A stretch of 64,000 nt of DNA from an uncultured virus (IMG/VR IMGVR_UViG_3300021138_000015) (IMGVR_UViG_3300021138_000015), one strand, 5' to 3'. Numbered from the stretch's first letter, positions 3,865 to 30,713 are shown. Notes: a model not told the origin generated them from the letters alone. Made by a program: numbers and translations.

Positions 3865-3905
3865 AAAGAAATAGTCAAAGTTAAACAAAAAATTAAAGAA
3901 ATTAT

Positions 3906-15315: not shown

Positions 15316-15532
15316 TTTTGAATAGTCTCTGTACGTGATGCATACGTTTAATTTCTTTGTAAATTCGATAAACACCAAGCGGACCAGCTGCGGCAAAAAA
15401 CCACGGAAGGAAGCCATGAATATAACTTTTTATGGCAATAACAATAAGACGATTACTTTGTTTAATGCTATGTCCTAGGTGCTTCCAATAGCCCATGCCC
15501 GATTCTTTAAGATGTTCTCGTGCTGATTTCAT
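15302..15532 (-). CDS. small protein, DUF6356-like
   Basis: EHL...GMGYWKH...IH.FLP.FF pattern; ATGA overlap with the carbamoyltransferase stop. Confidence 0.6.
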   Translation of the reverse strand: MKSAREHLKESGMGYWKHLGHSIKQSNRLIVIAIKSYIHGFLPWFFAAAGPLGVYRIYKEIKRMHHVQRLFKNDDK

Positions 15533-17007
15533 GAGCAAACTTTTACTCCATATTGTAGTTCAAAGCGGTCAGCATCTGCACGATCATTTACCATTGGTTC
15601 GCCACGGATGTTTAAGCTAGTATTAAGTAGCATAGGGCAACCGGTCATTACAAACCATTTTTCTAATAGTTCTCGGATTCCTGATCCGTCTTTAGGCACA
15701 GTCTGTATACGGCTAGTGCCGTCAACGTGGGTAATAGCAGGATATAGGTCAGGATGCCGACAACGACCGACGATCTGCATATACCTAGTGTCACTCCAGC
15801 CACTAGGGATATCAAAATATTCACTAGCGTGTTCCTCCAGTATAACTGGCGCAAATGGTCTGAATTTTTGTCTTCGTTTGATTTCATTTACTCTATCCTT
15901 TATATCTAGACCGCGTGGGTCTGCTAATAAACTCCTATTGCCCAAAGCACGAGGGCCAAACTCAGCACGGCCACTAGCAACACCAACAATTTTATCAGTA
16001 AGAAGACAATCCAAAATATCATTGACAGGATAAGCACCAGGAATGCAGTAACCCAGATAGGCATTTTGCCACTGTAACTGTTTGCCATATGCCAACGCCG
16101 CTGCCCCCAAACTGCTGCCGGCATCGCCAGGGCAAGGCATAATCCATATACTATCAAAATAATCTCCTAGGTTTCTATTTGCCAAACAGTTAAGTGCCAC
16201 ACCACCTGAATAGACTAAATTTGTACTCCACCCAAAGTCTCTAGCACGACGCATTACATTATACACTAGATTTTCACAAAGGTCTTGTGCTGATGCAGCT
16301 ATATCTTCCTTTTGATAATAGTCTGTGTAACTACTGGGCAACCCGGTGTGTAGATTTTGTTGGAACGTTACTTCTGATTCGTTTTTGATCAAATGCATTT
16401 TCATATTATCGCTGGCTGTAGGAGTTCCGTAGGCACTCATACCCATTAGGATATACTCATCTTCCATGGGCTTTAGTCCTATTTCGGCTGTGGCTGCTGT
16501 ATAGAATAATCCTATGCTGTGTGGATATCTCTGCCTCCATAGACGTGTATATTTAGCTTGACCGCGAACATACTGGGCTGCCCATATACTGATTGTGTCC
16601 CATTCCCCAATGGCATCTATTACCACTACTGTAGCACGAGTGTAAGGGCTGGTTTGAAATCCCCCGGCAGCATGGCTTAAATGATGATTATGTGTGCTAA
16701 CCGGCACATTAGGAAAATGTCCTTTTAATTGATTTTTTAATATATTCCAAACAGTTAATTTATCCCAATCAATTCCTTGTCCCGAGTATAACTGTCTTAA
16801 CTGTTTATTCCACGGACGTTCGTAATAGGCTATATGGTCTATATGACGATTGTCGGCGAGATCCCATATTAAATCCATGTGAATATCTGGGTCGTTTTTT
16901 ATACGACTATAGCGTTCGCTATGCCCAGCAAATACAATTTCACCTAAGTTGTTAACAACTGCAACGGCTGCGTCATGAAATCCAGCCGAGATTCCTAATA
17001 TGTTCAT
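15529..17007 (-). CDS. NodU/CmcH/TobZ-family O-carbamoyltransferase
   Basis: HDAA, ER.SR.K, HHLSHA, DAIGE, GGVALNC, GDAG, EFGPRALGNRS, RPFAP, HVDGTSRIQ, LNTSLN..GEP. Confidence 0.95.
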   Translation of the reverse strand: MNILGISAGFHDAAVAVVNNLGEIVFAGHSERYSRIKNDPDIHMDLIWDLADNRHIDHIAYYERPWNKQLRQLYSGQGIDWDKLTVWNILKNQLKGHFPNVPVSTHNHHLSHAAGGFQTSPYTRATVVVIDAIGEWDTISIWAAQYVRGQAKYTRLWRQRYPHSIGLFYTAATAEIGLKPMEDEYILMGMSAYGTPTASDNMKMHLIKNESEVTFQQNLHTGLPSSYTDYYQKEDIAASAQDLCENLVYNVMRRARDFGWSTNLVYSGGVALNCLANRNLGDYFDSIWIMPCPGDAGSSLGAAALAYGKQLQWQNAYLGYCIPGAYPVNDILDCLLTDKIVGVASGRAEFGPRALGNRSLLADPRGLDIKDRVNEIKRRQKFRPFAPVILEEHASEYFDIPSGWSDTRYMQIVGRCRHPDLYPAITHVDGTSRIQTVPKDGSGIRELLEKWFVMTGCPMLLNTSLNIRGEPMVNDRADADRFELQYGVKVCS

Positions 17008-17641
17008 TGATTTTTTCTGCTACTCGTTGATGTCCTTCTTCCAAGAAATGCCCATTGGGCCCTTGGGGTAATTTATAATTCCATTCCGCCATTCCTTCTT
17101 TTTCAAATCCTAAAAAGTAGGTTTGATCAATTTGATCAGTGTACCAGCTCTTCCCATCAAAAAATGCACGTTTATAATATTCGTTTTGACTGGTGTTAAG
17201 CATTACATATTTTATATTTTTGTTTTGTAAAAAGTTTTGTAGTAAAATAACCTGTTGTAAAAATTTTCTATGGAACCAAGCACTATTATGATATTTGTTA
17301 ATATATACTAATAAATCTTCTCGCCAGGTAGCACCATCCCTAATAAATAATTTTCCACCATACCCTGGCCATACGTCATATGTACCAACTTCATCGGCCC
17401 ATTCGCTTCTTCCTGTATCTGCCCAGGCAATAATAACTAAATCAGGAATGGTGTTCATTGGATTAATTAAAACCTCAATGGTCTTACGCAGAATTTTATC
17501 GTTACTAGAGGCCGGCTGACCTAAATTTGTTACCGAAGCCTGCAGTTGGTTAGCCAACAGAGACGGCCAAGCAAGATTTCTATCATTGAGTTCTTCCCCG
17601 TAGGTAAAACTGTCGCCTACGGCCAATATATTTTTAATCAT
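16973..17641 (-). CDS. SGNH/GDSL-like protein
   Basis: GDSFTYG; C-terminal GPNGHFLEEGH. Confidence 0.7.
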   Translation of the reverse strand: MIKNILAVGDSFTYGEELNDRNLAWPSLLANQLQASVTNLGQPASSNDKILRKTIEVLINPMNTIPDLVIIAWADTGRSEWADEVGTYDVWPGYGGKLFIRDGATWREDLLVYINKYHNSAWFHRKFLQQVILLQNFLQNKNIKYVMLNTSQNEYYKRAFFDGKSWYTDQIDQTYFLGFEKEGMAEWNYKLPQGPNGHFLEEGHQRVAEKINEHIRNLGWIS

Positions 17642-17739
17642 TTATAGATAAAAGGATCTCTTTTACGCAACTCTTTTAATTTCTTGCGATAACGTATTTC
17701 TAATACAATTCTATTGTATATGTTTTTTAACCAGTTCAT
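17638..17739 (-). CDS. 33-aa basic peptide MNWLKNIYNRIVLEIRYRKKLKELRKRDPFIYK (absent from the ORF track)
   Basis: ATG at 17739 and TGA at 17638-17640. It overlaps the upstream gene end and makes an ATGA junction with the downstream start, closing the only gap in the operon. Confidence 0.7.
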   Translation of the reverse strand: MNWLKNIYNRIVLEIRYRKKLKELRKRDPFIYK

Positions 17740-18532
17740 TGAATCGATCTTTCATTAAATTTGCTGCATCCTGATGTGCTTCTTCTAGTGGGTGTGTAGT
17801 ACCCACTGGGTATTTATTCTCTACTGCCCATTGGTAGAAGCCTCTTGGATCTTGTGTTTCGTGTGGGTGTGTTCCAGGCGGAAAAGTGTACCATTTATGC
17901 CAGTTAATTTGACTATAAATTGAGTTCATAGTAGGATCATTCTTGTGTCTAAGATAAATTCCATTATTTTCTAAATATATGTCAGCTGGGGCAAACAAAT
18001 AGGGAATTTGATTTATTTGAAAATACTGTTGTAAAAATAATATTTCTCGAAGACTAGTGTATGTTTCGTAGTATTCGTTATTTCCTACATGTTTATAAAA
18101 TGTCTTAGCAAAATCTGTTAATCCAGAATTATCCAACATTAATTTGTTATTAATATGTGCGTCAAACACCAGAGAATCAAATGTTGTAAATTCTTTTTTT
18201 ATAGTTGCGGGATCATCAACAATATCCCACAAATTAATGCTATACCATGGACTTGATTTCCTACCAGTATCGTAATTAAATCTAAACTCGTATCTATGAG
18301 TAAATGTCCACAATACTATTGCAAACAGGTCTTGTCCTTTACGTGCTTCGCAGGCATTCATTACCTGTCGAGCAATAGCTGCATTGGCATTTCCTGATTC
18401 GGCTGCACATACATAATCAGCATCGACAGTATTGGCTAATAAAGCTGGAAATGTTGATAGGCTATGTTGTCTAACACAGTCTTTTAATTCTGCACCATAG
18501 ACAAAACTATCACCCCCGGCTACTATAATCAT
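17711..18532 (-). CDS. SGNH/GDSL-like protein
   Basis: GGDSFVYG, WTF..R, GTTHPLEEAH. Confidence 0.7.
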   Translation of the reverse strand: MIIVAGGDSFVYGAELKDCVRQHSLSTFPALLANTVDADYVCAAESGNANAAIARQVMNACEARKGQDLFAIVLWTFTHRYEFRFNYDTGRKSSPWYSINLWDIVDDPATIKKEFTTFDSLVFDAHINNKLMLDNSGLTDFAKTFYKHVGNNEYYETYTSLREILFLQQYFQINQIPYLFAPADIYLENNGIYLRHKNDPTMNSIYSQINWHKWYTFPPGTHPHETQDPRGFYQWAVENKYPVGTTHPLEEAHQDAANLMKDRFNELVKKHIQ

Positions 18533-19643
18533 ATCCTGGTCTCATCATATTAATTTGTTGTTGCTTGTAATCTAAGTCAGTCCAACAATAATTAAAAGTA
18601 CCAACAGTTCCATTTACTTCAATTTTATAAATGTCTAGGTGATTACTTAATATTTGTTGTATAGTTTCTGGATGAACAGTGCCAAAACTAGATCTGAGAT
18701 TGACCTGTCCTAATGGTAGATATCCTAAACTTAATTTAGGATCGTTTTTATCGCGATTATTATTGGCTAACCATGCGTAAAAGTTATCAAGTTGAGCTGT
18801 GTGCCATGGCTGATCTTTACTACCATAAACAATATCCTGTCCCCATTCTACATCAAACTCACCTGAATAGTATTTCAATTCTGTAATAGCTTCGCACACA
18901 GTATCTGTTAACTCTGGAGCATGTTCGTCGCGAAATACTTCAAATAGTGTTTTACCTATCTGCGTCCAGTGCATATATACACCACCAAACCGACGGTCAT
19001 ACCCATTGGTAACGAATCCGTTACGGTGCTCGTCTTTAAGGTCTAGTCTATCTGCGTGTAAAAAAGTAGTAATTTGACTAGGACGTACAAACTGTGGTGT
19101 AGTTGCCTGTTTGCGTTGACTTAGACAAAGTGTTTCCATTTCATGGCACAAATTGTTTAACTGTCGTATGGCATATTTTGTTTCATAATCTGCTATTCGA
19201 TAGTAATCGCTTAATGCCCACACTGTACCTTGTAGTATTTCAAAATGGTTGTGTAACTTGTTCATTATACCATGTTTGATGCCAAGCCCTAGGTTACTTT
19301 CATCATAGCCAATGGGATACTCATCACCAAATCGTACTGTGTCAGGAGTAAAATATTCTTCGATAATATAACTATCTAGGCCGGCCTTTTGCCAAGTGCC
19401 TGTTCTATTAAATAAATTTATCTTGTAGATACAACTGTTTAGTTCATTGCAAAGATAACTTAAATTACGTGCAGTATGCGGAAATCCCATAAAACAGAAA
19501 TTTTTTTCTAATAGATTCCCAGACTGTAAAAGATCGGTTAATGCCACAGTCCAATCTTGTGCCAATAAAGAGTCATTGGTCTCTATGATATAGTCTACTA
19601 GATCATTTCTATCTAGCGGGTTGCGTAGTATAACTTTAATCAA
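18510..19643 (-). CDS. hypothetical protein
   Basis: 377-aa ORF coupled to its neighbours; His-containing motifs LHNHFE and LCHEME; family not recognised. Confidence 0.75.
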   Translation of the reverse strand: MIKVILRNPLDRNDLVDYIIETNDSLLAQDWTVALTDLLQSGNLLEKNFCFMGFPHTARNLSYLCNELNSCIYKINLFNRTGTWQKAGLDSYIIEEYFTPDTVRFGDEYPIGYDESNLGLGIKHGIMNKLHNHFEILQGTVWALSDYYRIADYETKYAIRQLNNLCHEMETLCLSQRKQATTPQFVRPSQITTFLHADRLDLKDEHRNGFVTNGYDRRFGGVYMHWTQIGKTLFEVFRDEHAPELTDTVCEAITELKYYSGEFDVEWGQDIVYGSKDQPWHTAQLDNFYAWLANNNRDKNDPKLSLGYLPLGQVNLRSSFGTVHPETIQQILSNHLDIYKIEVNGTVGTFNYCWTDLDYKQQQINMMRPGYDYSSRG

Positions 19644-20934
19644 TTTGATTCCACCATTCTAATACCGCAGGTCGTTCTGCTAGTATATCTTGCATAGTAT
19701 ACTGATCTTTACGAATTTTTTCAAGAGTTAATATTCGGCGTTTGCCCTTTTGGAGCCCAGCTAGCCAGTCCGCGGGCCATTGTTCTTGAAATGTGGGTCT
19801 AGTTTTTAGCTGGACAAGTATGTCATGTAGAGCTCCTTTATCAATGGAGTGCAAGATTTCGTCTACCCAAGGATGTAATAATTCTCTAGGTAGTGCTAAG
19901 GGTGACATAACTATGTCCGGGCTAAAACTAAAAACAACTTTGGCTAGTACATCTACTCCGAGTTTTTCTGCGAGCGCCGATACCTTTTCAACTTCAAAGA
20001 GTCCTGGTGTAGTAAGAGTGAAATCCATACGGATTTGGCGGCGGTGTTGGCTGTACGCAATTCCTTCATTGAAGTTCTCAAGCCATTGAGTAAAATTAAG
20101 ACCTGATCGAATATACTCTCCAATTCGGCCTGTGCCATCAATGCTTGCGCAGATTTGCCAGTCTCGTAGCCTAGCCAAAATATCACGATACAAATTAATA
20201 CCACGATAATTAACCCGACTGAGATTTGTGTTATACCTAGCGTAAACATTTGGACCATCTCCTAATTCTATTATTCTCTGCATATACCGCCAATGCTGTT
20301 CATACATTAGCGGTTCGCCACCGACCCAGTATATTTCTTCTACCCGATGTTCCTCTACTGCTTCTGCAAACTCTTGCTCAATCTGTGTATTCTGAAACTG
20401 TTCAATTTGTTGTTTAACTTCAGGCTTCATCCAATTGTTTTTTGGATTGGTGTAGTCAATCATTGCGTGTTGGCGCTGTTCTGACTCCCAGGCACTACTT
20501 AACATATCGCCACACATACGGCATTTAAAATTACAGAGATTACTAAAACGATAATCCCAGCTTACCGGCTTTACTGTTGTAAACCCTGTAACGTCAGTTG
20601 CTGCCATTGCGTCTAAATACTTATGCCCAAACAGCTGGTTAAAATAGCTACGGTAAACATCTGTGTTTAAAAGTCGATCATTACAGACTTCACACTCAGG
20701 TAATGTTTCCCCGGCCATCATACGACGCCGTACAGATCGCATATGATCACTGTTCCAGTGTTCATCTAGGGTAACAGGAATGTATCGTCCAGTGCCTGAG
20801 CCGGTATCTATATACTGTTCAAAGTTTTGTGCTGGTTCACGGCTGGCACAACACATACGTCGTTCAGTCTGCGGACTTAGGTATGTGTGGGTCCAGGGTG
20901 CCATGCATAGTGTGTCAGGTTTCTGCATATTCAA
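19636..20934 (-). CDS. radical SAM protein with N-terminal twitch (half-SPASM) domain
   Basis: CMAPW..MCC..CEVC, then CNFKCRMC and GGEP. Confidence 0.9.
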   Translation of the reverse strand: MNMQKPDTLCMAPWTHTYLSPQTERRMCCASREPAQNFEQYIDTGSGTGRYIPVTLDEHWNSDHMRSVRRRMMAGETLPECEVCNDRLLNTDVYRSYFNQLFGHKYLDAMAATDVTGFTTVKPVSWDYRFSNLCNFKCRMCGDMLSSAWESEQRQHAMIDYTNPKNNWMKPEVKQQIEQFQNTQIEQEFAEAVEEHRVEEIYWVGGEPLMYEQHWRYMQRIIELGDGPNVYARYNTNLSRVNYRGINLYRDILARLRDWQICASIDGTGRIGEYIRSGLNFTQWLENFNEGIAYSQHRRQIRMDFTLTTPGLFEVEKVSALAEKLGVDVLAKVVFSFSPDIVMSPLALPRELLHPWVDEILHSIDKGALHDILVQLKTRPTFQEQWPADWLAGLQKGKRRILTLEKIRKDQYTMQDILAERPAVLEWWNQID

Positions 20935-21877
20935 TTATCTGATTAACTATTTCGTTGACAAATCGTTGTTCAACTATATCGTTATTAAAAAATAAATTTC
21001 TATTATGTTCTAACTTTTCCCAGGTTATCTGATCATACGGCACCTGCACAAAATCTTCGACGCATTTTTTTATCATTGGCAATTTGTGGTATATATCTGG
21101 CGCTTGATCGTAGGATTCGTTAAACAAATTTTCAAATGTTTCAAATCCTAAGTTTTTTAAAAATGCCAAAACTCCAGGTTGACCGTAGACTATAAATGGA
21201 TGCCAAAATGCCAACGGTTTAAAAGTTTTTTCTGTGACAAATATACCTGTAGCGTTGTCGGCTTGACTTTCTGCTACTATACTAAAGTAAGTATTGTTGT
21301 ACCACTCAGGGTTAAAATTTCTCTGAAACTGTGTATTGGGATTATTGTAATTATGGCAGTAATTACCAATGGCATCGGTACTTAGATCAGGTGCGGTATC
21401 GTTGGGTAAATAAATTCCTTTTTCGACGTAACTATAAATCATATCATCTAAATAGGGGTGTAGACTATCTAATAATTGATCTCTACTGTATCGTTGCATA
21501 CGCATAGGCATAAAGGCCAGTTTGCTGTAGGTTTTATTTGGTATATAATTATGATAGCCAAGGGGCCGATACCATAGACTTTCGTTATACCAAAACCAAT
21601 TGTTGTTATGTAACAACATGTTTGGAAATGGTCTGGTAGCGTCGGTACTGACTTTTTCCCATAAATGATCAACTAAAACTTTTACACCACTATTAATTAA
21701 TTTTTTCGCCCAGGCAGCTTCTTTATTATATGTACCAACAATGGCCAATGATGTATTTTTATCGTACGTGACATTGGGATCATATTCAACTAGGTTAAAA
21801 TATTTTGTCAGCAGAGGCTTGAGATACCACGAATTAAATGATGTATGCTCGTGCTGTATTAAAGTTATTTTATTCAT
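20915..21877 (-). CDS. GT10-like protein (paralogue 3)
   Basis: IVAES...VTEKTFKPL...PF..YG...L..LGFETF..LFNESYD. Confidence 0.6.
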   Translation of the reverse strand: MNKITLIQHEHTSFNSWYLKPLLTKYFNLVEYDPNVTYDKNTSLAIVGTYNKEAAWAKKLINSGVKVLVDHLWEKVSTDATRPFPNMLLHNNNWFWYNESLWYRPLGYHNYIPNKTYSKLAFMPMRMQRYSRDQLLDSLHPYLDDMIYSYVEKGIYLPNDTAPDLSTDAIGNYCHNYNNPNTQFQRNFNPEWYNNTYFSIVAESQADNATGIFVTEKTFKPLAFWHPFIVYGQPGVLAFLKNLGFETFENLFNESYDQAPDIYHKLPMIKKCVEDFVQVPYDQITWEKLEHNRNLFFNNDIVEQRFVNEIVNQIIEYAET

Positions 21878-23087
21878 AGCCCATTGCGCTGGCTATTTCT
21901 GGGTGCGTATCCATAAAGTTTTGCTTACGGTATGCATCAGTACGTTGCATTTCAAATAAGAAACGTTTGCCATCACTGCCTGTTCCATTTTCAATGAACT
22001 TAATCACATTATCAATTTCTTGTTGATACTTGTCGGTAGTCCAAAATGTTGTCTTAAGTTTGTTTAATACTAACTCTTGTGCTCTAGGGGTCATGTTTTG
22101 TATATTCATGTACTCTGGACTATGCATCATGTTAAAGTATATGCTGGTAAAACCTTTAGTGTTTGCCCAGGCAAGTAGTTCATCTAGGTAATAGACGTTC
22201 TGTATGTTTATAGTAAAACATAACTGTGTAGTGATATTTCCACAATGTGGCTTGTTGGTCATGTTGTTAACTACATCAACAATCTCGTTAGCACGATCCC
22301 ACCGAGCACCATAACGTTCATATTCAAAGCGATCACCTACGTTGTCAATGCTAAAGGCAACATCAACACGGCCAAACTCTGCCCAGAGATCAAACAAGGT
22401 TGTGTCCCATTGCGTAGCATTTGTATTGTAGTGTATATCAATATGTTTTGCGTGGCCTGTTTGACAAGCAAACTTTAATAGATCTTTATGCTCTTCAATC
22501 ATCCAAGGCTCACCGCCAGTGAACTCTATATACTTGATATTAGGAATAAGTTCACGCATATTGTCCCAGAATGTTTCAGTCTTGCGTGGCCATGCACCTT
22601 GCCGTAACCATGTGTAGGCAATATGTTCTTTAGGATTAGTATGTTCTTTAACATACTGCATTTCTTCTTCGGCCCATTTACTACTCGACCAGGATCCGCA
22701 GATGCGGCATTTAAGATTACAAATATTACCTAACTTTAGATCAACAAACCATAATTGATCTGGATTATCATTTGCCCAATCTACCTGTTGGTATAGTTCT
22801 TTTAATCGAATCTGACTGTTAATGCGTTTGCTATCACGTCCTGCTGCTTCTTCGTCCCAGCATCTTTTACAAGTATTGGGCTTTTCCCCGCGACGGAATT
22901 GTTGACGTAAATCTTGCATATACTGACTATGATATACTACTTCAAGATTAGTTTCATTTAAATCGTACTTACGACCAGTTTCGTCTACAATCTCATCATC
23001 GGCTAAACAGCAAGGGCGTGTAGTGCCTAATGGACTAGTTTCAATACTGATCCATGGTAACATACATATAGTTGTAGGTAATGTCAT
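21870..23087 (-). CDS. N-terminal-twitch radical SAM protein
   Basis: CMLPW..PCC..CKRC; CNLKCRIC; GGEP; YNTN. Confidence 0.9.
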   Translation of the reverse strand: MTLPTTICMLPWISIETSPLGTTRPCCLADDEIVDETGRKYDLNETNLEVVYHSQYMQDLRQQFRRGEKPNTCKRCWDEEAAGRDSKRINSQIRLKELYQQVDWANDNPDQLWFVDLKLGNICNLKCRICGSWSSSKWAEEEMQYVKEHTNPKEHIAYTWLRQGAWPRKTETFWDNMRELIPNIKYIEFTGGEPWMIEEHKDLLKFACQTGHAKHIDIHYNTNATQWDTTLFDLWAEFGRVDVAFSIDNVGDRFEYERYGARWDRANEIVDVVNNMTNKPHCGNITTQLCFTINIQNVYYLDELLAWANTKGFTSIYFNMMHSPEYMNIQNMTPRAQELVLNKLKTTFWTTDKYQQEIDNVIKFIENGTGSDGKRFLFEMQRTDAYRKQNFMDTHPEIASAMGYE

Positions 23088-24418
23088 TGTAATTGTTTGA
23101 ACTCCGGAAATGTAGCCCAGAAGTCTTCTCCGCGTAAATCATCTAATAATTTAATCTCTTCAACAAACCGCGGCCATAGATCATTACGATCGTTTGCTGT
23201 TAAAAAGTTTAAGACACTTTGAAATCCTACTGTAGCACGACGTAGTTTATCCTGCGAATCTAACCATTCGATATGACGTTGATATGCTGGAATAATAACT
23301 TCTTTCTTAAACCATTCAGGAAAAATATCAACTCGATACCATTCTGGACTTTGGCAAATATTAATGTTAAAGTCCTTGGGTTCAATTAGGCCCAGATCAA
23401 CCCATTCTCGATGAAAATCTAACACGTGTAAGATATTCATAGCACTGATTGTGGCACTGATATAAAAATCCACATGTGGTACTTCTCGCATCATGCGCCT
23501 ACGATTTTCAACTGCTTGTTGCCAATCTGTGCCTTTACGCATTAGCTCCGCTCTAGCTCCGCTGGCATCTAGGCTGGCTCCTACGTTTACTGTTTCAAAT
23601 TTTTTCCAATAATCAAACACGTGACGGTCTTTAAAACGCATTTCACTAAAGTTTGTATTATAGATTAATCTACAATCTGTTTTATCTTGTTCCAATAGTC
23701 GATCTAGTAGGAAATAATGTTCTTTCATAATCAATGGTTCGCCACCAGCAAAATAGACCTGCTCTAAGTTAGGAATATGTGGTTCCATTTGACGTTGCAT
23801 ACTGTCTTCGTCGCCTGCAGCATATTCTACACGTAGCATTTCACGTCCAAGAACATCGGGCTTGCGATCATACATTTTAACATGGTCGTTGTACCAGTTG
23901 CTACTGAAAATAGGACCACAGGTGCGACAACTAAAATTACAGAGATTACTAAAACGTATATCCCAGTAACGAATTTTAAACTCTGGGTTAGTTCCATCCT
24001 CTAGTGTTAAATCTACGTCATTGATATAGTGTCCTTGATTACGATTTGCTTCATTACGCATACTAAAGAATCCATTTTCTTCTTGTTCATAACATTTAGT
24101 ACATTCTATACAAGGACGATCTTCAAGCATGTTACGACGCATGGTCCGGTACCCATCTTGGTTCCAAACTTCCTCCATGGTATTTTTACGCAGGTCGCCC
24201 ACTGGGTGCCAATAGTCTGCTAGACAACAAGGATATGTACGGCCATCTGGAAAGGCATGCATATGAGTCCATGGCAATATACAAAATGTTTTGCTTTCGG
24301 TTAAGCGTTTAATTTGTAATTCTGTTAGATCTTCCTCGTCTATATAGTAAGGCATCTTACTCATATAGTCGTAGCCTTTTTTATAAAATGCTTTTTGACG
24401 TTCTGCTTTATCTGTCAT
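23084..24418 (-). CDS. N-terminal-twitch radical SAM protein
   Basis: CILPW..PCC..CTKC; CNFSCRTC; GGEP; YNTN. Confidence 0.9.
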   Translation of the reverse strand: MTDKAERQKAFYKKGYDYMSKMPYYIDEEDLTELQIKRLTESKTFCILPWTHMHAFPDGRTYPCCLADYWHPVGDLRKNTMEEVWNQDGYRTMRRNMLEDRPCIECTKCYEQEENGFFSMRNEANRNQGHYINDVDLTLEDGTNPEFKIRYWDIRFSNLCNFSCRTCGPIFSSNWYNDHVKMYDRKPDVLGREMLRVEYAAGDEDSMQRQMEPHIPNLEQVYFAGGEPLIMKEHYFLLDRLLEQDKTDCRLIYNTNFSEMRFKDRHVFDYWKKFETVNVGASLDASGARAELMRKGTDWQQAVENRRRMMREVPHVDFYISATISAMNILHVLDFHREWVDLGLIEPKDFNINICQSPEWYRVDIFPEWFKKEVIIPAYQRHIEWLDSQDKLRRATVGFQSVLNFLTANDRNDLWPRFVEEIKLLDDLRGEDFWATFPEFKQLQ

Positions 24419-25770
24419 ATTGAATTATACCATTCTGCTAAATTTGGAAATGTTGCTGTAAAGTTCTTGTTGCGACGTTGGTCATATTGACTATAAAATT
24501 GTTTAAAATCCTGTTGCAATACTGATTGTTCAGCAGCGCCCATGTGCGGTGTTTTAACCACATCAAGATAATCTATTAGTCGCTGAACTTGATTAAGTTC
24601 CATTTGATGTAAAAAACCTGAATTCTGATTTTCATCTAACCAACGTTGTAGACGAATTCGATAACTGGTTCGTAAATTATCCGGTAAAACCAATGGACTT
24701 TGAAAACTAGGGAATCTTAAAATATTTAGTGTAAATGTTGGAAAGTCTTTGCCCCATTCACGCTTCCAGTTTAATAACACATCTAAGAATGTGTCAAGAC
24801 TATCTAGGCATAATGCGTTAATGGTACACATCATATGAAATCCTTCTATGTGTGCATTCTGTAATACTCGTTCTACATTGTCTGCCCAGGTTTGCCATAC
24901 AAGCCCGTCGCGAATGTACTCTGACTGTATGCCCACAGCTTCATTGCTGGTATATAAATGGAAATGTTTAATATGATGTGTAGCTTCGATCATGCGATCT
25001 ATTAGGTCATCTTTGGCACCTAGATTACTGTTAAGTGCAAACCGCATCTCAGGATTAACTTCTTTAGTTCGAAACCAATCTAATAGTCTCCAGGTATCTC
25101 CAGACATTAAGGGTTCGCCACCGGTTAGTCGAAGCTCCTGTAGTGTACGACTGAGGTCTGTTCCCCACCATTTAAAGAACGCCTCAACGTAAGGATTATG
25201 CTCACCAAAACGATATAGCTGACTGCTTGCATGACTATGAGTAAAATGATTCCTACCGTCTGAAGTGAGGCCGGTATAAGAGCCATTGGTGTCAATATCC
25301 CGAACCCAAGTGCTGCTGAAAGCAGGGTTACAGTAACTACACCCAAAATTGCATGTGCGATCAAAAGCGATTTCAAGCGTCTGTAGATCCACATCTGTGC
25401 TGGCAGGCCTAGCATAGGCATCTCTTAGATCCTCATCTGAATATATAACTGTTTTGTAAACTCTATCACTTATATTATCTCGACCAATGTCTTCTATCTT
25501 CCAGCAATACTCACAACCTGTGGGACGCTCGCCTCGTTGCATCTGCTCGCGTTCCATTTTTTTCTTTTGTGTATTGTGTAATGCCTTGGGATTTCTTTCA
25601 ATTTCATTGATATTTATTTGATGTGGCAATGGATGATGACAACTTGTGGTTTGCCCAGATCCCAACCATATTGTGGCGTTGTAATACTTTGCTGCACACC
25701 AACTCTCACTCTTGATGTCAATTACTCTTTTTTTGTATTGATGAAAATTTTCACCTGGCAATAATGGCAT
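24415..25770 (-). CDS. N-terminal-twitch radical SAM protein (C-H-H subtype)
   Basis: CAAKY..SCHHP..CEYCW; CNFGCSYC; GGEP. Confidence 0.9.
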   Translation of the reverse strand: MPLLPGENFHQYKKRVIDIKSESWCAAKYYNATIWLGSGQTTSCHHPLPHQININEIERNPKALHNTQKKKMEREQMQRGERPTGCEYCWKIEDIGRDNISDRVYKTVIYSDEDLRDAYARPASTDVDLQTLEIAFDRTCNFGCSYCNPAFSSTWVRDIDTNGSYTGLTSDGRNHFTHSHASSQLYRFGEHNPYVEAFFKWWGTDLSRTLQELRLTGGEPLMSGDTWRLLDWFRTKEVNPEMRFALNSNLGAKDDLIDRMIEATHHIKHFHLYTSNEAVGIQSEYIRDGLVWQTWADNVERVLQNAHIEGFHMMCTINALCLDSLDTFLDVLLNWKREWGKDFPTFTLNILRFPSFQSPLVLPDNLRTSYRIRLQRWLDENQNSGFLHQMELNQVQRLIDYLDVVKTPHMGAAEQSVLQQDFKQFYSQYDQRRNKNFTATFPNLAEWYNSI

Positions 25771-25978
25771 AATCTATTTCTTTACCTTCTCTAATAAGTT
25801 TAACATCGTATCCTGCTTTTTTAGTAGCGATTAATTTGTTAATATTGTTTTGTTCTAAAATTTTGTCTTTGCCCTGGCGATTCCATGTCCAATCGCTTTT
25901 TATTTCATATACAACATTTTCTATTATAAAATCACTTAGATACCATCGTGGTTTTCCATAGTAATCAATTCTTGGCAT
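25751..25978 (-). CDS. short PD-(D/E)XK-type endonuclease-like ORF, possibly a remnant of a mobile nuclease
   Basis: YLSDFII..VVYEIKS.W motif; only 75 aa. Confidence 0.5.
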   Translation of the reverse strand: MPRIDYYGKPRWYLSDFIIENVVYEIKSDWTWNRQGKDKILEQNNINKLIATKKAGYDVKLIREGKEIDYAIIAR

Positions 25979-27350
25979 GGTATTCGCATTCTTTCCAAAA
26001 TTCTCGCATTTCTGGAAATGTATTTAAAAAATTAGTATTACGACGTTTATCGTGTTCGTTGAAAAATCTGTAAAAATCTGCACGTTGCAGTTTAACATAA
26101 TCTGGTGCCAACTTGCTACCTTCCCGCATCCAATCTATGTCGCGGCGCAAGCGTTGTACTTCATAATCTTTGAATCCGTGGAATGGATTGTCGGCTGTTT
26201 CTAAATTAAGTTCCATCCAGTCGGCTACACGCTCTAATACCCCAACATACACAGGAGGAAGTATTTGTAAACTCTGCCATCGAGGTTGTCTAAGCAATGG
26301 TGTATCAAACCAAACACGTTGATATGTACTGCTAAATCGACGACGCATGCTCAGTATCCAGTCCAGCTGATGCTGTAGACCCAGTACCGATAAGTTATTC
26401 ATTGTAATAATAAATGTTAGGCTATTGCGGTAAGGTATTTCTTCTAAGAACCTTTGCGAATTAGTATACATTCGATTGAAGTCTAACCCATGCCTGATAT
26501 ATTCTGCGTGTGAAGGAATGCCAGAGTCTACACTCACATACTGCATGAAATGTTCAATCTGTGTCGAACATAACTGTTTTACGTAGTCCATATATTTGTT
26601 AAACAATCCGTCTTCTACACTAAAATTACTGGTTACATTTAAGTGTAACTCAGGATTGGGTAATGCTAGTACATAGTCAAATACTTTATATGTATTCCGA
26701 TCCATTAGCGGTTCACCACCGGTCATGCGGAAATGTTTTAATTTTGGGTATAGTTCTGGCCACCACTCCCAAAACGCATCTACGTAGGGGTTAGATTGAC
26801 TAACAGGGATGGGTCTATTTCGACCTGTAAAATGGCTAGCGTCATTATGAATACTGCTAGTAGGATAACCACCCCAACGATCAATTTCTGCTTGCCATGT
26901 ACTGCTGAACTGTGGGCTACAATAACTGCAAGCCAGATTACAAGCATGATTAAAATTAACTTCGACATAACTTGGAATAACATCTTCGTTTCCTTTTAAA
27001 TTTACAATTACGTCATAATCTTCTGCGGCCCACCGTTCACCAGAACGATAGTGACGATCACTTAACTGTCCATGTGCTTCTATGTTCCAGCAATAACTAC
27101 ATTCTGCGGGTTTTTCCTGTTGTAACATCAAGACACGCTGTTTCTTTTTATGTTCAGTGTTATGTAGTGCGCCTGGGTTGTCTGCTAAGACGTCAGGATC
27201 AATTTCATGCAATGGTGGGTGATAACAACTGTTATTAAGTCCGGTTGGTAAATGTAGACTTACCTGTTTCCATTTAGCCAAGCAGAGTGCTGGACCTAAA
27301 TTTTCTTTCATCCATTCGGCACTGGCCATAAAGTCACTTTTATTGGTCAT
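25965..27350 (-). CDS. N-terminal-twitch radical SAM protein (C-Y-H subtype)
   Basis: CLAKW..SCYHP..CSYCW; CNLACSYC; GGEP. Confidence 0.9.
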   Translation of the reverse strand: MTNKSDFMASAEWMKENLGPALCLAKWKQVSLHLPTGLNNSCYHPPLHEIDPDVLADNPGALHNTEHKKKQRVLMLQQEKPAECSYCWNIEAHGQLSDRHYRSGERWAAEDYDVIVNLKGNEDVIPSYVEVNFNHACNLACSYCSPQFSSTWQAEIDRWGGYPTSSIHNDASHFTGRNRPIPVSQSNPYVDAFWEWWPELYPKLKHFRMTGGEPLMDRNTYKVFDYVLALPNPELHLNVTSNFSVEDGLFNKYMDYVKQLCSTQIEHFMQYVSVDSGIPSHAEYIRHGLDFNRMYTNSQRFLEEIPYRNSLTFIITMNNLSVLGLQHQLDWILSMRRRFSSTYQRVWFDTPLLRQPRWQSLQILPPVYVGVLERVADWMELNLETADNPFHGFKDYEVQRLRRDIDWMREGSKLAPDYVKLQRADFYRFFNEHDKRRNTNFLNTFPEMREFWKECEYHAKN

Positions 27351-28294
27351 TGTAATCTATCGAGTATTTTCTTGTTGTATAGCAAAGTATCTTGCATGTC
27401 TTTATACATCTGTTGTCTATCACTTATGCTTAATGTGTCAAGAAAATCTATCACAGTGTATATTTTTTTGATTCTTTCGTACTGTTGATAATCATCATAA
27501 CTTTCGTCCCACCATTGATTAAATGTTTGAAATCCATATTTTGCTCGAAGATTTGATAAAAATCCCTGTGGACCATATGTAATAAATGGTGTTAATGCTA
27601 ACATAGGACGAAACGTTTTTTCGGTCGTAAAAAATGTTTTACCAGTTGTATACGTTTCAGCAACCACATCAACAAAAAAATCATTATAAAATTTAATAAT
27701 TTCCATATTTTCGTTGAATTCTGGTTTATGTCCTGGATGTCCTGGTAAGGGCTGTGGATTAGTTTTTAAATATTCAATAACATTATATAATTCTTGAGGT
27801 GCATACATAATTACATTATCCAGTGATACTGTATTATGTTGTCGTTCTTCTAATGTAACATTGCAGGCTAATAACGAATTAGTTTGTGTTCTACGTTTTA
27901 TATAACTTAATAAGCATAATCTATTCCAACTTGGAATGTTATACAGGCACCCAAATAATTTTTTTGTAACATCTTTGTTGGGCACAAAATTCCGTTTATT
28001 TGCTTCTAGTTTTGCTGTTTGTATCCAGTGTTGATGGCGTATAACAATATCATAATCGTTGTTAATTTCATCGGCATTCCAGGTTATTATTCTTATATTT
28101 TTTTTATTAAAATTAAATTGTTCGCAAACATAATCTAACATTTTATACAAGCCAATGGCTTCGGCGTCGGGTCCTTCACCATTCATAATAATAGTTGCCG
28201 ATCCACTGGTTTGGTATTCTTTTATCAAATCAGTTACAATATTTTCTTTTTGAAATATTTCATTATGGCTTGTAACTACACGTATCATTTTCAT
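27347..28294 (-). CDS. GT10-like protein (paralogue 4)
   Basis: VVAET...FTTEKTFRP...PF..YG...L...GFQTF..WWDESYD. Confidence 0.6.
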   Translation of the reverse strand: MKMIRVVTSHNEIFQKENIVTDLIKEYQTSGSATIIMNGEGPDAEAIGLYKMLDYVCEQFNFNKKNIRIITWNADEINNDYDIVIRHQHWIQTAKLEANKRNFVPNKDVTKKLFGCLYNIPSWNRLCLLSYIKRRTQTNSLLACNVTLEERQHNTVSLDNVIMYAPQELYNVIEYLKTNPQPLPGHPGHKPEFNENMEIIKFYNDFFVDVVAETYTTGKTFFTTEKTFRPMLALTPFITYGPQGFLSNLRAKYGFQTFNQWWDESYDDYQQYERIKKIYTVIDFLDTLSISDRQQMYKDMQDTLLYNKKILDRLQ

Positions 28295-28644: not shown

Positions 28645-29480
28645 AAGTTCTCCAAAATATATTTTCCCCAGATCTGATGTCCGCGTGCCAATGGATGATA
28701 ATTTCTAAAATTATTCGTGTCTTCAAGTATTTTTCTTCTGTCTAATGCAGATGTGCTTAGATTAATGATCCAATCTAAGTACTTGTTTTTGTTATTGCAT
28801 AAATCAATTGAGCTTTTTAATGATTCTATAACAGGGGTGCTGACCATATAACAAGTGTTAAATTTTTGGTTATATATTGTTTCTATCCAGGTGTCGGGTA
28901 ATAAAACAGCAGACGCTTTTTCTAATCCAATATGATCAACAAAATTGCTACCAATCTTTAATGTAACATTTTTATGCAACTTTACTGCGTCTATTATTTG
29001 TTCTACAACATAATCATTTAAAAACTTTAATAAATTATTGTAGTCGTTATTATTATTGAACCAATCAATATAATCTATATGTCGGTCAAGATCTGAATTA
29101 AATGCTCTTCCGGGTTCTGTAAATGTGCATATAAGATAGATATGTTGATAAGCTAATTCGGGAATAAGTGACGATAATTCTTTAATCTTTCCCATAAGCC
29201 AAAAGTTACCACTGCCACCTTGTCCCAGATTTAACCAATCTGCTTGTAGTTCACGCGATAATAATTTACCATAATGGTTAGAAAGTCTAAATTCCATATT
29301 ATCATTAACAGTCATATCTGCTCCCCAGGTCCAAGAATCACCAACAGTGACTACTAATTTATCAGATTTGTTATTAGTAAATGTAAAGCCAAAGTTTTTA
29401 CGACCGGATACTGGATCTGTAAAACCAGTATCTACACTGGTAAAATATTGATCTAATGTTTCGTTGGTTAATTCAATCAT
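28641..29480 (-). CDS. SGNH/GDSL-like protein
   Basis: VGDSWTWG, NLGQGGSGN, YHPLARGH. Confidence 0.7.
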   Translation of the reverse strand: MIELTNETLDQYFTSVDTGFTDPVSGRKNFGFTFTNNKSDKLVVTVGDSWTWGADMTVNDNMEFRLSNHYGKLLSRELQADWLNLGQGGSGNFWLMGKIKELSSLIPELAYQHIYLICTFTEPGRAFNSDLDRHIDYIDWFNNNNDYNNLLKFLNDYVVEQIIDAVKLHKNVTLKIGSNFVDHIGLEKASAVLLPDTWIETIYNQKFNTCYMVSTPVIESLKSSIDLCNNKNKYLDWIINLSTSALDRRKILEDTNNFRNYHPLARGHQIWGKYILENL

Positions 29481-30373: not shown

Positions 30374-30713
30374 AATATTCTATATCTTTATATATTTCTC
30401 CTACCTCTAACGGTAGGCTAGCGTGATTTTTTACTACAGGAAATCCCACTGTAGATTTTGTTAATTTTACACTATATCTGCGGTCTCGGTCAATCTTTTT
30501 TAACTGTTGATCAACTACACGGTAGTCAAAGTAGTTATGGTATTCTTCTGGCGTCGCTACTACATATGGTCCAGAGTCCTCATGGTCCACCATTGAACAC
30601 TTGACTATCTCTCCAAGTTCGTCGTAGTATAGTCTGTATTCTATAAGCACAGCCTTAGGTGGCCTAATTAATTTTTCTACTTCAGACCAAAAATTAATTT
30701 CTTCGGGATTCAT
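30354..30713 (-). CDS. hypothetical protein
   Basis: 119-aa ORF overlapping both neighbours. Confidence 0.7.
   Translation of the reverse strand: MNPEEINFWSEVEKLIRPPKAVLIEYRLYYDELGEIVKCSMVDHEDSGPYVVATPEEYHNYFDYRVVDQQLKKIDRDRRYSVKLTKSTVGFPVVKNHASLPLEVGEIYKDIEYYDYRNS

What the first reader, a model, noticed from the sequence alone, without database searches (positions are those of the whole stretch)
19636..27350. Five clustered radical SAM enzymes with the twitch domain at the N-terminus, in two subtypes
Seen: all five have CxxxCxxC and GGEP, preceded by a Cys-containing twitch-like domain. Three have C..PW/CC/CxxC (19636, 21870, 23084). Two have C.AK(W/Y)/SC(Y/H)HP/CxYCW (24415, 25965), where His may replace a Cys ligand. 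Established: SPASM/twitch domains are normally C-terminal; twitch enzymes include the sugar-acting BtrN, and SPASM enzymes include peptide and sulfatase maturases. To my knowledge the N-terminal-twitch family has no assigned function. Inference: interleaving with GT10-like genes suggests sequential radical chemistry on sugars (oxidation, epimerisation, C-C chemistry) or cross-linking of virion proteins.
Basis: partly seen in the sequence, partly recalled or inferred. Interest (0 to 1): 0.85.

Follow-up and report, generated by a model that had tools for sequence, protein, structure and literature searches.

The report
Five twitch-first radical SAM enzymes, phage
An uncultured freshwater giant phage carries five old, distinct copies of a catalogued but never-studied iron-sulfur "radical SAM" enzyme at the centre of a conserved sugar-handling gene cassette next to its tail-fibre genes, so they most likely edit a sugar decoration by chemistry nobody has tested.

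Summary
All five ORFs (R1 25965-27350, R2 24415-25770, R3 23084-24418, R4 21870-23087, R5 19636-20934, minus strand) score 288-386 bits against NCBIfam NF033640, the twitch domain-containing radical SAM family (cut-off 170). Each has four invariant N-terminal Cys ahead of CxxxCxxC and GGEP. No His-for-Cys swap is needed.

They are five ancient orthogroups kept in one order in 28 of 28 related viral contigs. The fixed cassette also holds GT8-like and GT-A-like transferases, an unknown 377-aa protein, SGNH-like proteins, a conserved 33-aa peptide and a carbamoyltransferase.

Natural fusions join this enzyme type to GT2, GNAT and two cassette companions. No flippase, polymerase or initiating-transferase family, and no membrane protein apart from the DUF2061 tail of the kinase-like protein, was found.

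Best reading (0.55): soluble radical editing of a sugar or glycan in the phage's host-recognition module. Substrate and reaction are untested. The GT10 label is only a lead.

The family is catalogued and has no paper in the searched library. This scan has noted the same cassette on at least seven other genomes.

The parts
25965..27350 (-). R1, twitch-first radical SAM, subtype B (461 aa)
   Evidence: NF033640 298.6 bits. Orthogroup of 23 distinct sequences at 61-100% identity. Most domain fusions found are R1-type.
24415..25770 (-). R2, twitch-first radical SAM, subtype B (451 aa)
   Evidence: NF033640 303.3 bits. Orthogroup of 24. Group-specific invariant Cys at R4 positions 291 and 297.
23084..24418 (-). 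R3, twitch-first radical SAM, subtype A (444 aa)
   Evidence: NF033640 385.7 bits. Pfam SPASM at residues 46-109, 45.6 bits. Orthogroup of 23.
21870..23087 (-). R4, twitch-first radical SAM, subtype A (405 aa, shortest form)
   Evidence: NF033640 341.5 bits. AlphaFold2 model with 123-row alignment: pLDDT 94.1, pTM 0.90.
19636..20934 (-). R5, twitch-first radical SAM, subtype A (432 aa)
   Evidence: NF033640 287.6 bits. Orthogroup of 20 at 67-100% identity. Always followed by the 377-aa protein.
27347..28294 (-). Ta, transferase-like protein with a conserved TEK..KP..PF motif (variable cassette member)
   Evidence: Same superfamily as 20915-21877, 11574-12734 and 13652-14734. No Pfam or PDB sequence hit.
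20915..21877 (-). Tb, second member of the same transferase-like superfamily, between R4 and R5
   Evidence: Protein-atlas GT10 clusters score only 0.81-0.82, a lead only.
18510..19643 (-). U377, conserved protein of unknown family directly after R5
   Evidence: Present in 22 of 28 loci and upstream of the peptide in 80 of 80 further loci. No Pfam, NCBIfam or PDB hit. Profile matches the N-terminal 25-263 of fusion protein P0261, hhalign 94.2%.
17711..18532 (-). SG1, SGNH-like by its GDS motif and similarity to SG2 only
   Evidence: 33.7% identity over 83 aa to SG2. No Pfam hit. Present in 19 of 28 loci.
17638..17739 (-). pep33, conserved 33-aa basic peptide gene overlapping both neighbours
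   Evidence: Found in 22 loci. 31 of 33 third codon positions vary while the last seven residues RDPFIYK (and 15 of the 33 positions in all) never change. 436 of 600 pattern matches in viral contigs encode it.
16973..17641 (-). SG2, DUF6071 / GDSL-like protein
   Evidence: Pfam DUF6071 E 9.9e-14, above cut-off. GDSL models below cut-off.
15529..17007 (-). Carbamoyltransferase (NodU/CmcH type)
   Evidence: Pfam Carbam_trans_N and Carbam_trans_C. PHROG 1601, E 2e-94. Downstream of pep33 in 76 of 80 loci.
29477..30373 (-). GTA, conserved GT-A-like protein with a DGD motif
   Evidence: Present in 25 of 28 loci. Weak Glyco_tranf_2_3 hits in 6 of 20 orthologues. Profile matches the N-terminal 2-224 of fusion protein P0157, hhalign 98.7%.
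30694..31542 (-). N1, GT8-like (glycogenin-like) transferase
   Evidence: Joint N1/N2 profile hits glycogenin-1 at E 1.1e-5 over profile positions 7-115. Present in 23 of 28 loci.
31529..32353 (-). N2, paralogue of N1
   Evidence: 23.6% identity to N1, E 6e-8. Same profile hit as N1.
32681..33613 (-). U310, conserved unknown; first cassette gene after the tail-fibre gene
   Evidence: Present in 22 of 28 loci. No family hit.
33627..34913 (-). Tail-fibre-like protein immediately upstream of the cassette
   Evidence: PHROG tail-fibre and virion-protein hits. Peptidase_G2 chaperone domain below cut-off. Precedes the cassette in related loci.
14731..15417 (-). NeuD/PglB/VioB-like sugar N-acetyltransferase (variable member)
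   Evidence: TIGR03570 120.9 bits, below the 160.8 cut-off. Hexapep E 1.3e-23. Present in 1 of 28 loci.
4610..6638 (+). NDP-sugar epimerase/dehydratase (4610-5566) and DegT/DnrJ/EryC1 aminotransferase (5484-6638)
   Evidence: Pfam Epimerase E 3e-45 and DegT E 4.6e-79.
7178..11575 (-). 1465-aa protein whose C-terminal about 220 residues resemble GTA
   Evidence: BLAST to GTA E 5e-6 and to the N-terminus of P0157 E 7e-23.

Best explanation
The five genes are non-redundant, anciently diverged members of the twitch-first radical SAM family NF033640. They form the invariant centre of a soluble glycan-building and glycan-tailoring cassette, which sits directly behind a tail-fibre gene of an uncultured freshwater jumbo myophage.

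Inferred mechanism for each enzyme: the CxxxCxxC cluster cleaves SAM to a 5'-deoxyadenosyl radical, which abstracts one particular sugar hydrogen. The fully Cys-ligated N-terminal [4Fe-4S] twitch cluster then acts as an electron relay, as in BtrN-type enzymes. The outcome would be oxidation, epimerisation, dehydration or C-C chemistry at five different positions or residues.

GT8-like, GT-A-like and TEK-motif transferases would add the sugars. SGNH-like proteins and a carbamoyltransferase would finish the product. The likely acceptor is a phage protein of the host-recognition module.

Shown here: family membership, cysteine pattern, fold, five orthogroups, fixed gene order, companions and fusions. 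Inferred: cluster content, sugar substrate, reaction types and acceptor.
For: - Family and motifs.
- Model: a confident R4 model (pLDDT 94.1) has full-length structural matches only among predicted phage proteins (TMq 0.73-0.86 for 19 of the 20 best rows).
- Orthogroups: five groups at 42-100% identity within and 20-25% between. All 28 related loci hold at least 4 copies, in the same order.
- Sugar context in the window: N1/N2 profile hits glycogenin GT8, E 1.1e-5. GTA gives weak GT2_3 hits in 6 of 20 orthologues. Carbamoyltransferase. NeuD/PglB/VioB-like acetyltransferase. NDP-sugar dehydratase/epimerase and DegT aminotransferase.
- Fusions, among 24 fused representatives scanned with Pfam and typed by paralogue: GT2+Glyco_transf_7C::R1-type (P0214, 3 cluster members), R2-type::GT2 (P0144), GNAT::R1-type (P0208, 3 members).
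- Cassette companions fused to R1-type enzymes: GTA-like (hhalign 98.7%) and U377-like (94.2%).
- Tandem fusions keep the gene order R1-R2, R3-R4 and R4-R5.
- A bacterial member (Elusimicrobiota MAG) lies among three GT2, one GT4, two GDSL-containing proteins and TPR proteins.
- In the operon only the DUF2061 tail of the kinase-like protein reaches the TM threshold; the DUF6356 protein is borderline at 1.56. No flippase, polymerase or initiating-transferase family was found.
Against: - No substrate, product or iron-sulfur content was measured. All functional evidence is context.
- Solved-structure matches cover only the generic radical SAM core and are tied between sugar-acting and peptide-acting enzymes: BlsE Z 12.8, SkfB 12.5, anSME 12.2, viperin 12.0.
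- Three of the main companions have no recognisable family: U377, GTA and the TEK superfamily.
- Some fusions point towards protein or peptide partners: TPR or Sel1 in 4 of 24 and a subtilase fragment in 1 of 24.
- A strongly conserved 33-aa peptide sits inside the cassette. SPASM/twitch enzymes are often peptide maturases.
- Single-member fusion clusters (P0144, P0157; P0261's cluster was not looked up) could be gene-calling read-throughs of adjacent genes.
Confidence: 0.55

Rival explanations
1. Peptide or protein maturases. The conserved 33-aa peptide, or a virion protein, is the substrate or scaffold. The five enzymes install cross-links, epimerisations or other side-chain changes, as SPASM/twitch RiPP maturases do. 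The transferases and the carbamoyltransferase then decorate that peptide.
For: - pep33 is present in all 22 loci that reach that position.
- It is under clear purifying selection: 31 of 33 third codon positions vary, and W3, Y17, F30 and Y32 are among its 15 invariant positions.
- It is encoded in 436 of 600 pattern-matching viral stretches.
- In 80 of 80 further loci it is preceded by a radical SAM gene and U377.
- The sequence profile's best solved relative is TigE, followed by viperin and the peptide maturase SkfB.
- TPR, Sel1 and subtilase fusions exist.
Against: - No RRE/PqqD-type domain appears in any of the five at E up to 0.1.
- Position 8 of the peptide, mostly aromatic, is Ile or Val in 3 of 19 sequences, in loci that keep all five enzymes. 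This fits a hydrophobic helix face better than a modification site.
- Vibrio phage K566 has four family members in one cluster and no pep33, U377 or carbamoyltransferase match.
- pep33 always sits between U377 (or SG1) and the carbamoyltransferase (or SG2), not next to R1-R4.
Confidence: 0.17
2. Same radical sugar chemistry, but the product is aimed at the host. The cassette remodels a host envelope polysaccharide or its soluble precursors during infection, for example to block superinfection, rather than decorating the virion.
For: NDP-sugar enzymes and many transferases are present. Literature on pelagimyophages describes radical SAM cassettes inside a variable 'host recognition cluster' (PMC7029224, passages read).
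Against: No membrane-embedded transferase, flippase or polymerase was found. The cassette is fixed directly after a tail-fibre gene on the same strand.
Confidence: 0.15
3. Biosynthesis of a free small molecule, such as an aminoglycoside-like or nucleoside-like compound, released or used inside the infected cell.
For: Twitch enzymes and NodU-type carbamoyltransferases occur in aminoglycoside pathways (recalled knowledge, not tested here). BlsE, a nucleoside-antibiotic enzyme, is the top VIA match, though tied with others. A cyanophage paper labels a radical SAM gene next to a DegT-type gene as 'antibiotic synthesis' (PMC12801897, passages read).
Against: No cyclitol synthase or resistance gene was recognised. 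No membrane protein that could serve as an exporter was found. There are about eight transferase-like domains, and the position in the tail-fibre module fits a polymer or protein decoration better.
Confidence: 0.08
4. Hypermodification of phage DNA bases with sugars.
For: Phage DNA hypermodification pathways can use radical SAM enzymes and glycosyltransferases (recalled knowledge, not tested here).
Against: The window encodes ordinary dTMP synthesis (DHFR, ThyX). No hydroxymethylase or nucleotide kinase was recognised among the operon or window genes scanned. The cassette lies in the tail-fibre module.
Confidence: 0.03

Closest known systems
NCBIfam NF033640, N_Twi_rSAM (twitch domain-containing radical SAM protein)
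   Same: All five proteins match over the full length at 288-386 bits against a cut-off of 170. They share the N-terminal four-Cys domain, CxxxCxxC and GGEP.
   Different: The family has a name but no assigned reaction. Nothing in it describes five fixed paralogues, the phage cassette or its companions. Searches for 'NF033640' and for 'radical SAM' with 'N-terminal twitch' each returned 0 papers.
BtrN (2-deoxy-scyllo-inosamine dehydrogenase, PDB 4M7T), the type twitch enzyme
   Same: The family profile's N-terminal positions 17-93 align to BtrN's twitch domain, residues 183-258, E 7e-4. The spacing of the four Cys is of the same kind. That BtrN's cluster is fully Cys-ligated is recalled knowledge.
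   Different: In BtrN the twitch domain follows the core; here it precedes it. The cores are not specially close: BtrN is absent from the 50 best VIA rows. The substrate here is unknown.
BlsE, anSME, SkfB, viperin and MoaA (solved radical SAM cores)
   Same: The partial-barrel core superposes at Z 11-12.8 over about 200-223 residues.
   Different: Only model residues about 90-375 align. Foldseek TMq is at most 0.40. No solved structure covers the whole architecture. The matches are tied, so they do not indicate a substrate.
Radical SAM genes noted in marine T4-like phage genomes (PMC5332604, PMC7029224)
   Same: One T4-like environmental genome with 12 radical SAM genes, and radical SAM cassettes inside the pelagimyophage host recognition cluster next to the tail fibres (passages read).
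   Different: Those papers give no family assignment, orthogroups, companions or function in the passages read. Their supplements were not read.
Virus-encoded cytoplasmic glycosylation of virion proteins (mycobacteriophage, chlorovirus, mimivirus fibrils)
   Same: A virus-encoded set of soluble transferases plus an amino-sugar pathway next to structural genes. This analogy is recalled, not tested here.
   Different: To my knowledge none of those systems is described with radical SAM tailoring enzymes. Whether this phage's virion is glycosylated is unknown.

Membership tests
NF033640 N_Twi_rSAM | Whole-protein HMM score above the curated cut-off of 170 bits | tested here: met
   R1 298.6, R2 303.3, R3 385.7, R4 341.5 and R5 287.6 bits.
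NF033640 N_Twi_rSAM | Twitch-type four-Cys domain placed N-terminal to the radical SAM core | tested here: met
   Four Cys are invariant in A1 and kept in at least 23 of 24 sequences in each orthogroup. Pfam SPASM sits at the N-terminus of R3 and R4. The profile matches the BtrN twitch domain.
Radical SAM superfamily | CxxxCxxC cluster motif and GGE SAM-binding motif | tested here: met
   C134, C138, C141 and G205-G206-E207-P208 (R5 numbering) are invariant. Pfam Radical_SAM is above cut-off for R4 and R5 and just below for R1-R3.
Radical SAM superfamily | Two [4Fe-4S] clusters actually bound; SAM cleavage | not testable with these tools
   Needs reconstitution, iron/sulfide analysis, EPR or Mossbauer spectroscopy, and 5'-deoxyadenosine assays.
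Full SPASM enzymes (anSME, PqqE, MftC type) | Seven or eight Cys for two auxiliary clusters, C-terminal to the core | tested here: not met
   Only four Cys outside CxxxCxxC are conserved across the groups, and all are N-terminal.
RiPP radical SAM maturases | Leader-peptide recognition element (RRE/PqqD-like domain) | tested here: not met
   No such Pfam or NCBIfam domain at E up to 0.1 in any of the five. A divergent RRE cannot be excluded.
RiPP radical SAM maturases | Cognate precursor peptide encoded in the cluster | tested here: inconclusive
   A conserved 33-aa peptide gene lies in the cassette. It flanks U377 and the carbamoyltransferase, and it is absent from the K566 radical SAM cluster.
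GT10 fucosyltransferases (for 20915-21877 and 27347-28294) | Match to Pfam PF00852 or to a solved GT10 sequence | tested here: not met
   None of 22 superfamily members hits PF00852 at E up to 1. No PDB sequence hit at E up to 5. Protein-atlas GT10 clusters score only 0.81-0.82, below that tool's own trust level.
GT8 retaining glycosyltransferases (for N1 and N2) | Sequence-profile similarity over the nucleotide-sugar-binding half | tested here: met
   Profile A5 hits glycogenin-1 at E 1.1e-5, profile positions 7-115. The C-terminal half and the activity are untested.

The most novel reading that the evidence does not exclude
The 33-aa peptide is the scaffold on which the cassette works. A glycogenin-like transferase would prime one of its invariant tyrosines. 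The five radical SAM enzymes, U377, the SGNH-like proteins and the carbamoyltransferase would then build a heavily edited glycopeptide or peptide-derived molecule. That would be a phage-encoded hybrid between RiPP and glycan biosynthesis, present in hundreds of jumbo-phage genomes.
Probability: 0.12. Interest if true: 0.9.

Novelty: new variant of a known kind. Interest (0 to 1): 0.6.

Why it matters
The family is very large: 5,157 clusters at 50% identity match the five-paralogue profile at E up to 1e-30. The protein-atlas clusters nearest to R3 are 93-100% viral, and full-length structural matches to the R4 model were found only among predicted viral proteins. In the searched literature it has no reaction, no structure and no paper.

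Five paralogues kept in fixed order next to tail-fibre genes suggest a multi-step radical pathway tied to host recognition. If so, this would be a new enzymology (a radical SAM "assembly line" on sugars) and a new kind of phage surface chemistry.

The fusions to GT2, GNAT, GTA-like and U377-like domains point to concrete pairs to assay. Structural relatives in cultured vibriophages (KVP40, phi-pp2) and sequence relatives in K566 make the question testable.

Tried and rejected
- Megablast of the 7.7-kb region against the phage collection: no match.
- tblastn of R3 against plasmids: no match.
- The window's own assembly is not held. The nearest record, G001, is a 21-kb fragment with one weak hit.
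- AlphaFold2 of R3 without an alignment gave pLDDT 43.4 and was discarded.
- Alignment A1 was too divergent for a genome-collection scan. I then used the single bacterial protein P0259.
- Profile searches of GTA, U377 and the TEK superfamily against PDB sequences found nothing meaningful.
- Pfam scans of U377 and TEK members found nothing meaningful.
- Sigma-70 promoter-like and terminator-like sites are no more frequent than in shuffles. The T4 late-promoter motif TATAAATA is absent. No transcription-unit boundary could therefore be set.
- Complex prediction of the carbamoyltransferase with pep33 returned 'no answer'. It says nothing either way.
- No RNA holder was listed among the sequencing runs, so nothing can be said on expression.
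- The search for homologous proteins does not take a 33-aa query. I used the search for related loci with alignment A8 instead.
- Literature searches with 0 hits: 'radical SAM' with 'N-terminal twitch'; 'NF033640'; 'radical SAM' with 'carbamoyltransferase' and 'cyanophage'.
- My first impression that this is a T4-like cyanophage was dropped. The nearest cultured baseplate-wedge relatives are jumbo phages (Phosso, Atu_ph07) at about 34% identity, and the DNA recurs in lake metagenomes.

Full report
WHAT IS THERE

Five minus-strand ORFs lie at the reported coordinates: R1 25965-27350, R2 24415-25770, R3 23084-24418, R4 21870-23087 and R5 19636-20934.

- They are only 20-25% identical to one another.
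- They share seven invariant cysteines: four in the first about 85 residues (C10, C28, C81, C84 in R5 numbering) and then CxxxCxxC. A GGEP motif is also invariant.
- Pfam puts its SPASM model at the N-terminus of R3 and R4, above cut-off, and of R5, just below it. It finds none in R1 or R2.
- NCBIfam NF033640 ("N_Twi_rSAM, twitch domain-containing radical SAM protein") covers all five end to end at 287.6-385.7 bits against a cut-off of 170. No characterised radical SAM family comes near its own cut-off.
- A profile of 123 family sequences aligns its N-terminal positions 17-93 to the C-terminal twitch domain of BtrN, E 7e-4.

One point is not. In R1 and R2 the first Cys of the 'CC' pair is Ser. 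The four candidate ligands are kept in at least 23 of 24 sequences in every orthogroup, so a His ligand need not be invoked.

Four of the five groups also have their own invariant Cys in the core: R5 at R4 position 244, R4 at 290, R2 at 291 and 297, and R1 in an insertion. These could be hydrogen-atom donors of the kind used by radical SAM epimerases. That is a lead only.

FOLD

- Folding R3 without an alignment failed (pLDDT 43.4).
- Folding R4 with a 123-row alignment of paralogues from related loci gave pLDDT 94.1 and pTM 0.90.
- Against solved structures only the generic core matches. Foldseek TMq is at most 0.40.
- VIA-align gives BlsE Z 12.8, SkfB 12.5, anSME 12.2, viperin 12.0 and CteB 11.4. 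These are effectively tied and cover model residues about 90-375.
- Against predicted viral structures, 19 of the 20 best rows have TMq 0.73-0.86 over the whole length. Nearly all are "uncultured Caudovirales phage" proteins.
- Weaker whole-length matches occur in Vibrio phages phi-pp2 (TMq 0.61) and KVP40 (TMq 0.57).
- The complete architecture therefore has no solved representative.

HOW WIDESPREAD

- R3 alone has 7,297 relatives at E up to 1e-5 among the 8,000 candidates scored, a capped number.
- A profile of the five finds 18,874 cluster representatives at E up to 1e-3, 11,332 at 1e-10 and 5,157 at 1e-30.
- The nearest protein-atlas clusters are 93-100% viral.
Vibrio phage K566 has four places in one cluster, and Ralstonia phage RsoM2USA has two.
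- One bacterial carrier was found, an Elusimicrobiota MAG. It was the only one of 151 genomes sampled from its phylum with a hit above cut-off.
- None of 14 control genomes reaches the cut-off.

FIVE ORTHOGROUPS AND A FIXED CASSETTE

Using R3 as query, 28 viral contigs were fetched.

- Every one holds 4-7 family members. The loci with four are cut by a contig end.
- The 123 distinct sequences fall into five groups matching R1-R5, with 20-24 sequences each including the window's. Identity is 42-100% within groups. A further 10 copies are below 40% identical to any window paralogue.
- The gene order is the same everywhere: tail fibre, U310, U104, N2, N1, U119, GTA, [variable], R1, [variable], R2, R3, R4, [variable], R5, U377, SG1, pep33, SG2, carbamoyltransferase.
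- Companion counts out of 28 loci: GTA 25, N1 23, N2 23, U377 22, U310 22, carbamoyltransferase 20. Several loci end before these genes.
L015 and L024 have nothing between R2 and R5, and L018 and L019, which print one identical gene order, likewise.

WHAT THE COMPANIONS ARE

- N1 and N2 are paralogues. Their joint profile hits glycogenin-1 (GT8) at E 1.1e-5 over the nucleotide-sugar-binding half.
- GTA has a DGD motif. It gives weak Glyco_tranf_2_3 hits in 6 of 20 orthologues and no PDB sequence hit.
- Ta, Tb, the plus-strand 11574-12734 gene and 13652-14734 form one superfamily with a conserved TEK..KP..PF..G..GF.TF..ESYD block.
  - It matches no Pfam family, including GT10, in 0 of 22 members.
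  - It matches no PDB sequence.
  - Only protein-atlas rows at 0.81-0.82 name GT10, below that tool's trust level.
- Other assigned genes:
  - 15529-17007 is a NodU/CmcH-type carbamoyltransferase.
  - 14731-15417 is NeuD/PglB/VioB-like, 120.9 bits, below cut-off.
  - 16973-17641 is DUF6071/GDSL-like.
  - 15302-15538 is DUF6356.
  - 4610-5566 is an NDP-sugar epimerase/dehydratase and 5484-6638 a DegT aminotransferase.
- U377 has no recognisable family.
- Only the DUF2061 tail of the kinase-like protein reaches the transmembrane threshold; the DUF6356 protein is borderline. No flippase, polymerase or initiating-transferase family was seen. The pathway looks soluble.

FUSIONS

Among the 150 best representatives, many are fused forms.

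- Tandem fusions follow the gene order:
  - R3-R4: P0121, P0125, P0126, P0132, P0133, P0140.
  - R1-R2: P0122.
  - R4-R5: P0124.
- Of the 24 fused proteins scanned with Pfam, the domain fusions were:
  - GT2+Glyco_transf_7C::R1-type (P0214, three cluster members).
  - R2-type::GT2 (P0144, one member).
  - GNAT::R1-type (P0208, three members).
  - a subtilase fragment::R1-type (P0168).
  - Sel1 or TPR with R3-type (or, in P0136, R4-type) modules (P0259, P0130, P0136, P0260).
- Two cassette companions recur as N-terminal domains of R1-type enzymes:
  - GTA-like in P0157 (hhalign 98.7%, E 3.8e-16).
  - U377-like in P0261 (94.2%, E 1.1e-7).
- Single-member fusions could be read-through artefacts. 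The three-member ones are less likely to be.

THE BACTERIAL MEMBER

In the Elusimicrobiota MAG, the Sel1-fused enzyme lies among three GT2, one GT4, two proteins with GDSL domains, several TPR proteins, B12-binding radical SAM enzymes and ordinary C-terminal-SPASM radical SAM enzymes. This is the same mix of functions as in the phage cassette.

THE 33-AA PEPTIDE

ORF 17638-17739 overlaps both of its neighbours.

- It is found in all 22 of the 28 loci that reach that position.
- Across 19 sequences, 31 of 33 third codon positions vary. Fifteen of its 33 positions are invariant in a 17-sequence alignment, including the last seven residues RDPFIYK.
- In the 80 loci kept, a radical SAM gene and U377 lie upstream in 80 of 80. 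A carbamoyltransferase lies downstream in 76 of 80.
- The peptide directly follows U377 in 41 loci and SG1 in 34. It directly precedes the carbamoyltransferase in 39 and SG2 in 38.
- It is a real, strongly constrained gene tied to the U377/carbamoyltransferase end of the cassette.
- The K566 radical SAM cluster lacks the peptide, U377 and the carbamoyltransferase.

MOST LIKELY MECHANISM

I put 0.55 on a soluble pathway in which GT8-like, GT-A-like and TEK-type transferases assemble sugars. The acceptor would be a protein of the host-recognition module, or the sugars may still be at the nucleotide-sugar level. Five specialised radical SAM enzymes would each abstract a defined sugar hydrogen. 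The N-terminal [4Fe-4S] twitch cluster would serve as an electron relay. SGNH-like proteins and a carbamoyltransferase would finish the product.

Family membership, motifs, fold, orthogroups, synteny and fusions are shown. Cluster content, substrate, reactions and acceptor are inferred.

Rivals:
- Peptide or protein maturation with pep33 as substrate or scaffold: 0.17.
- The same chemistry aimed at host envelope sugars: 0.15.
- A free small molecule: 0.08.
- DNA hypermodification: 0.03.

COMPARISON WITH WHAT IS KNOWN

The proteins are members of a catalogued family with no known function.

- Searches for 'NF033640' and for 'radical SAM' with 'N-terminal twitch' each gave 0 papers.
- 'twitch domain-containing radical SAM' gave six papers (search listing only). 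By their titles, five concern radical SAM enzymology or spectroscopy and one an antimicrobial screen; none mentions phages.
- Two papers mention such genes in passing; only passages were read:
  - A T4-like marine viral genome with 12 radical SAM genes (PMC5332604).
  - Radical SAM cassettes in the pelagimyophage host recognition cluster (PMC7029224).
- A cyanophage paper labels one radical SAM gene beside a DegT-type gene 'antibiotic synthesis' (PMC12801897, passages).
- Supplements were not read and might list more.
- This scan's own notes describe the same cassette on at least seven other genomes and reach the same untested sugar-tailoring reading. I treated those notes as leads, not evidence.

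ORGANISM

- The baseplate-wedge protein is about 34% identical to those of jumbo phages Phosso, Atu_ph07 and SCTP-2.
- Related contigs reach 354 kb.
- Near-identical DNA is held by lake and freshwater metagenome runs from 2012 to 2022. Seven runs hold at least half of the sampled words.
- The host is unknown.

LIMITS

- No biochemical fact was established.
- Model coordinates could not be measured.
- The related loci were found with R3 and pep33 as bait, so they are a clade sample and not the whole family.
- The counts out of 28 include loci truncated by contig ends.

Noticed in passing
window 17638-17739 (-): A 33-aa basic peptide gene, more conserved than its neighbours, with an invariant seven-residue C-terminus RDPFIYK. 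It is encoded in at least 436 viral-contig stretches and always lies between U377 or SG1 and SG2 or the carbamoyltransferase. No family match.
   Followed up: yes
window 25751-25978 (-): A 75-aa ORF wedged between R1 and R2, overlapping both. It has a below-cut-off match to the C-terminal end of DUF7487 (E 2.5e-5) and is absent from all 28 related loci. It may be a remnant of an inserted element.
   Followed up: partly
window 7178-11575 (-): A 1465-aa protein with no family hit. Its last about 220 residues resemble the cassette's GT-A-like protein and the N-terminal domain of the fused radical SAM protein P0157.
   Followed up: partly
window 40340-53023 (-): A single 4227-aa ORF between the tail-fibre-like genes and the baseplate-wedge gene. 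Not analysed.
   Followed up: no
whole window: The T4 late-promoter motif TATAAATA occurs 0 times on either strand, against 9.9 +/- 3.3 expected from shuffles.
   Followed up: no
window 2597-4613 (+): DHFR and ThyX (flavin-dependent thymidylate synthase) genes lie upstream of the NDP-sugar dehydratase/aminotransferase pair.
   Followed up: no
window 12679-13293 (-): An APS-kinase-like P-loop domain fused to DUF2061, followed by a 121-aa cytidylyltransferase-like protein (13290-13655). This may be a sugar or alcohol phosphate activation step. Present in 16 and 12 of 28 loci.
   Followed up: partly
L042 and L031 (Elusimicrobiota MAG contig, about 42 kb): About 15 radical SAM genes of several types (C-terminal SPASM, B12-binding, twitch-first) are packed with GT2, GT4, GDSL and TPR genes. 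This resembles the arrays noted earlier by the scan in other small-celled bacteria.
   Followed up: partly
window 15302-15538 (-): A small DUF6356 protein directly after the carbamoyltransferase (E 5.8e-10). It overlaps the annotated long start of the acetyltransferase ORF, whose true start is probably further downstream.
   Followed up: partly
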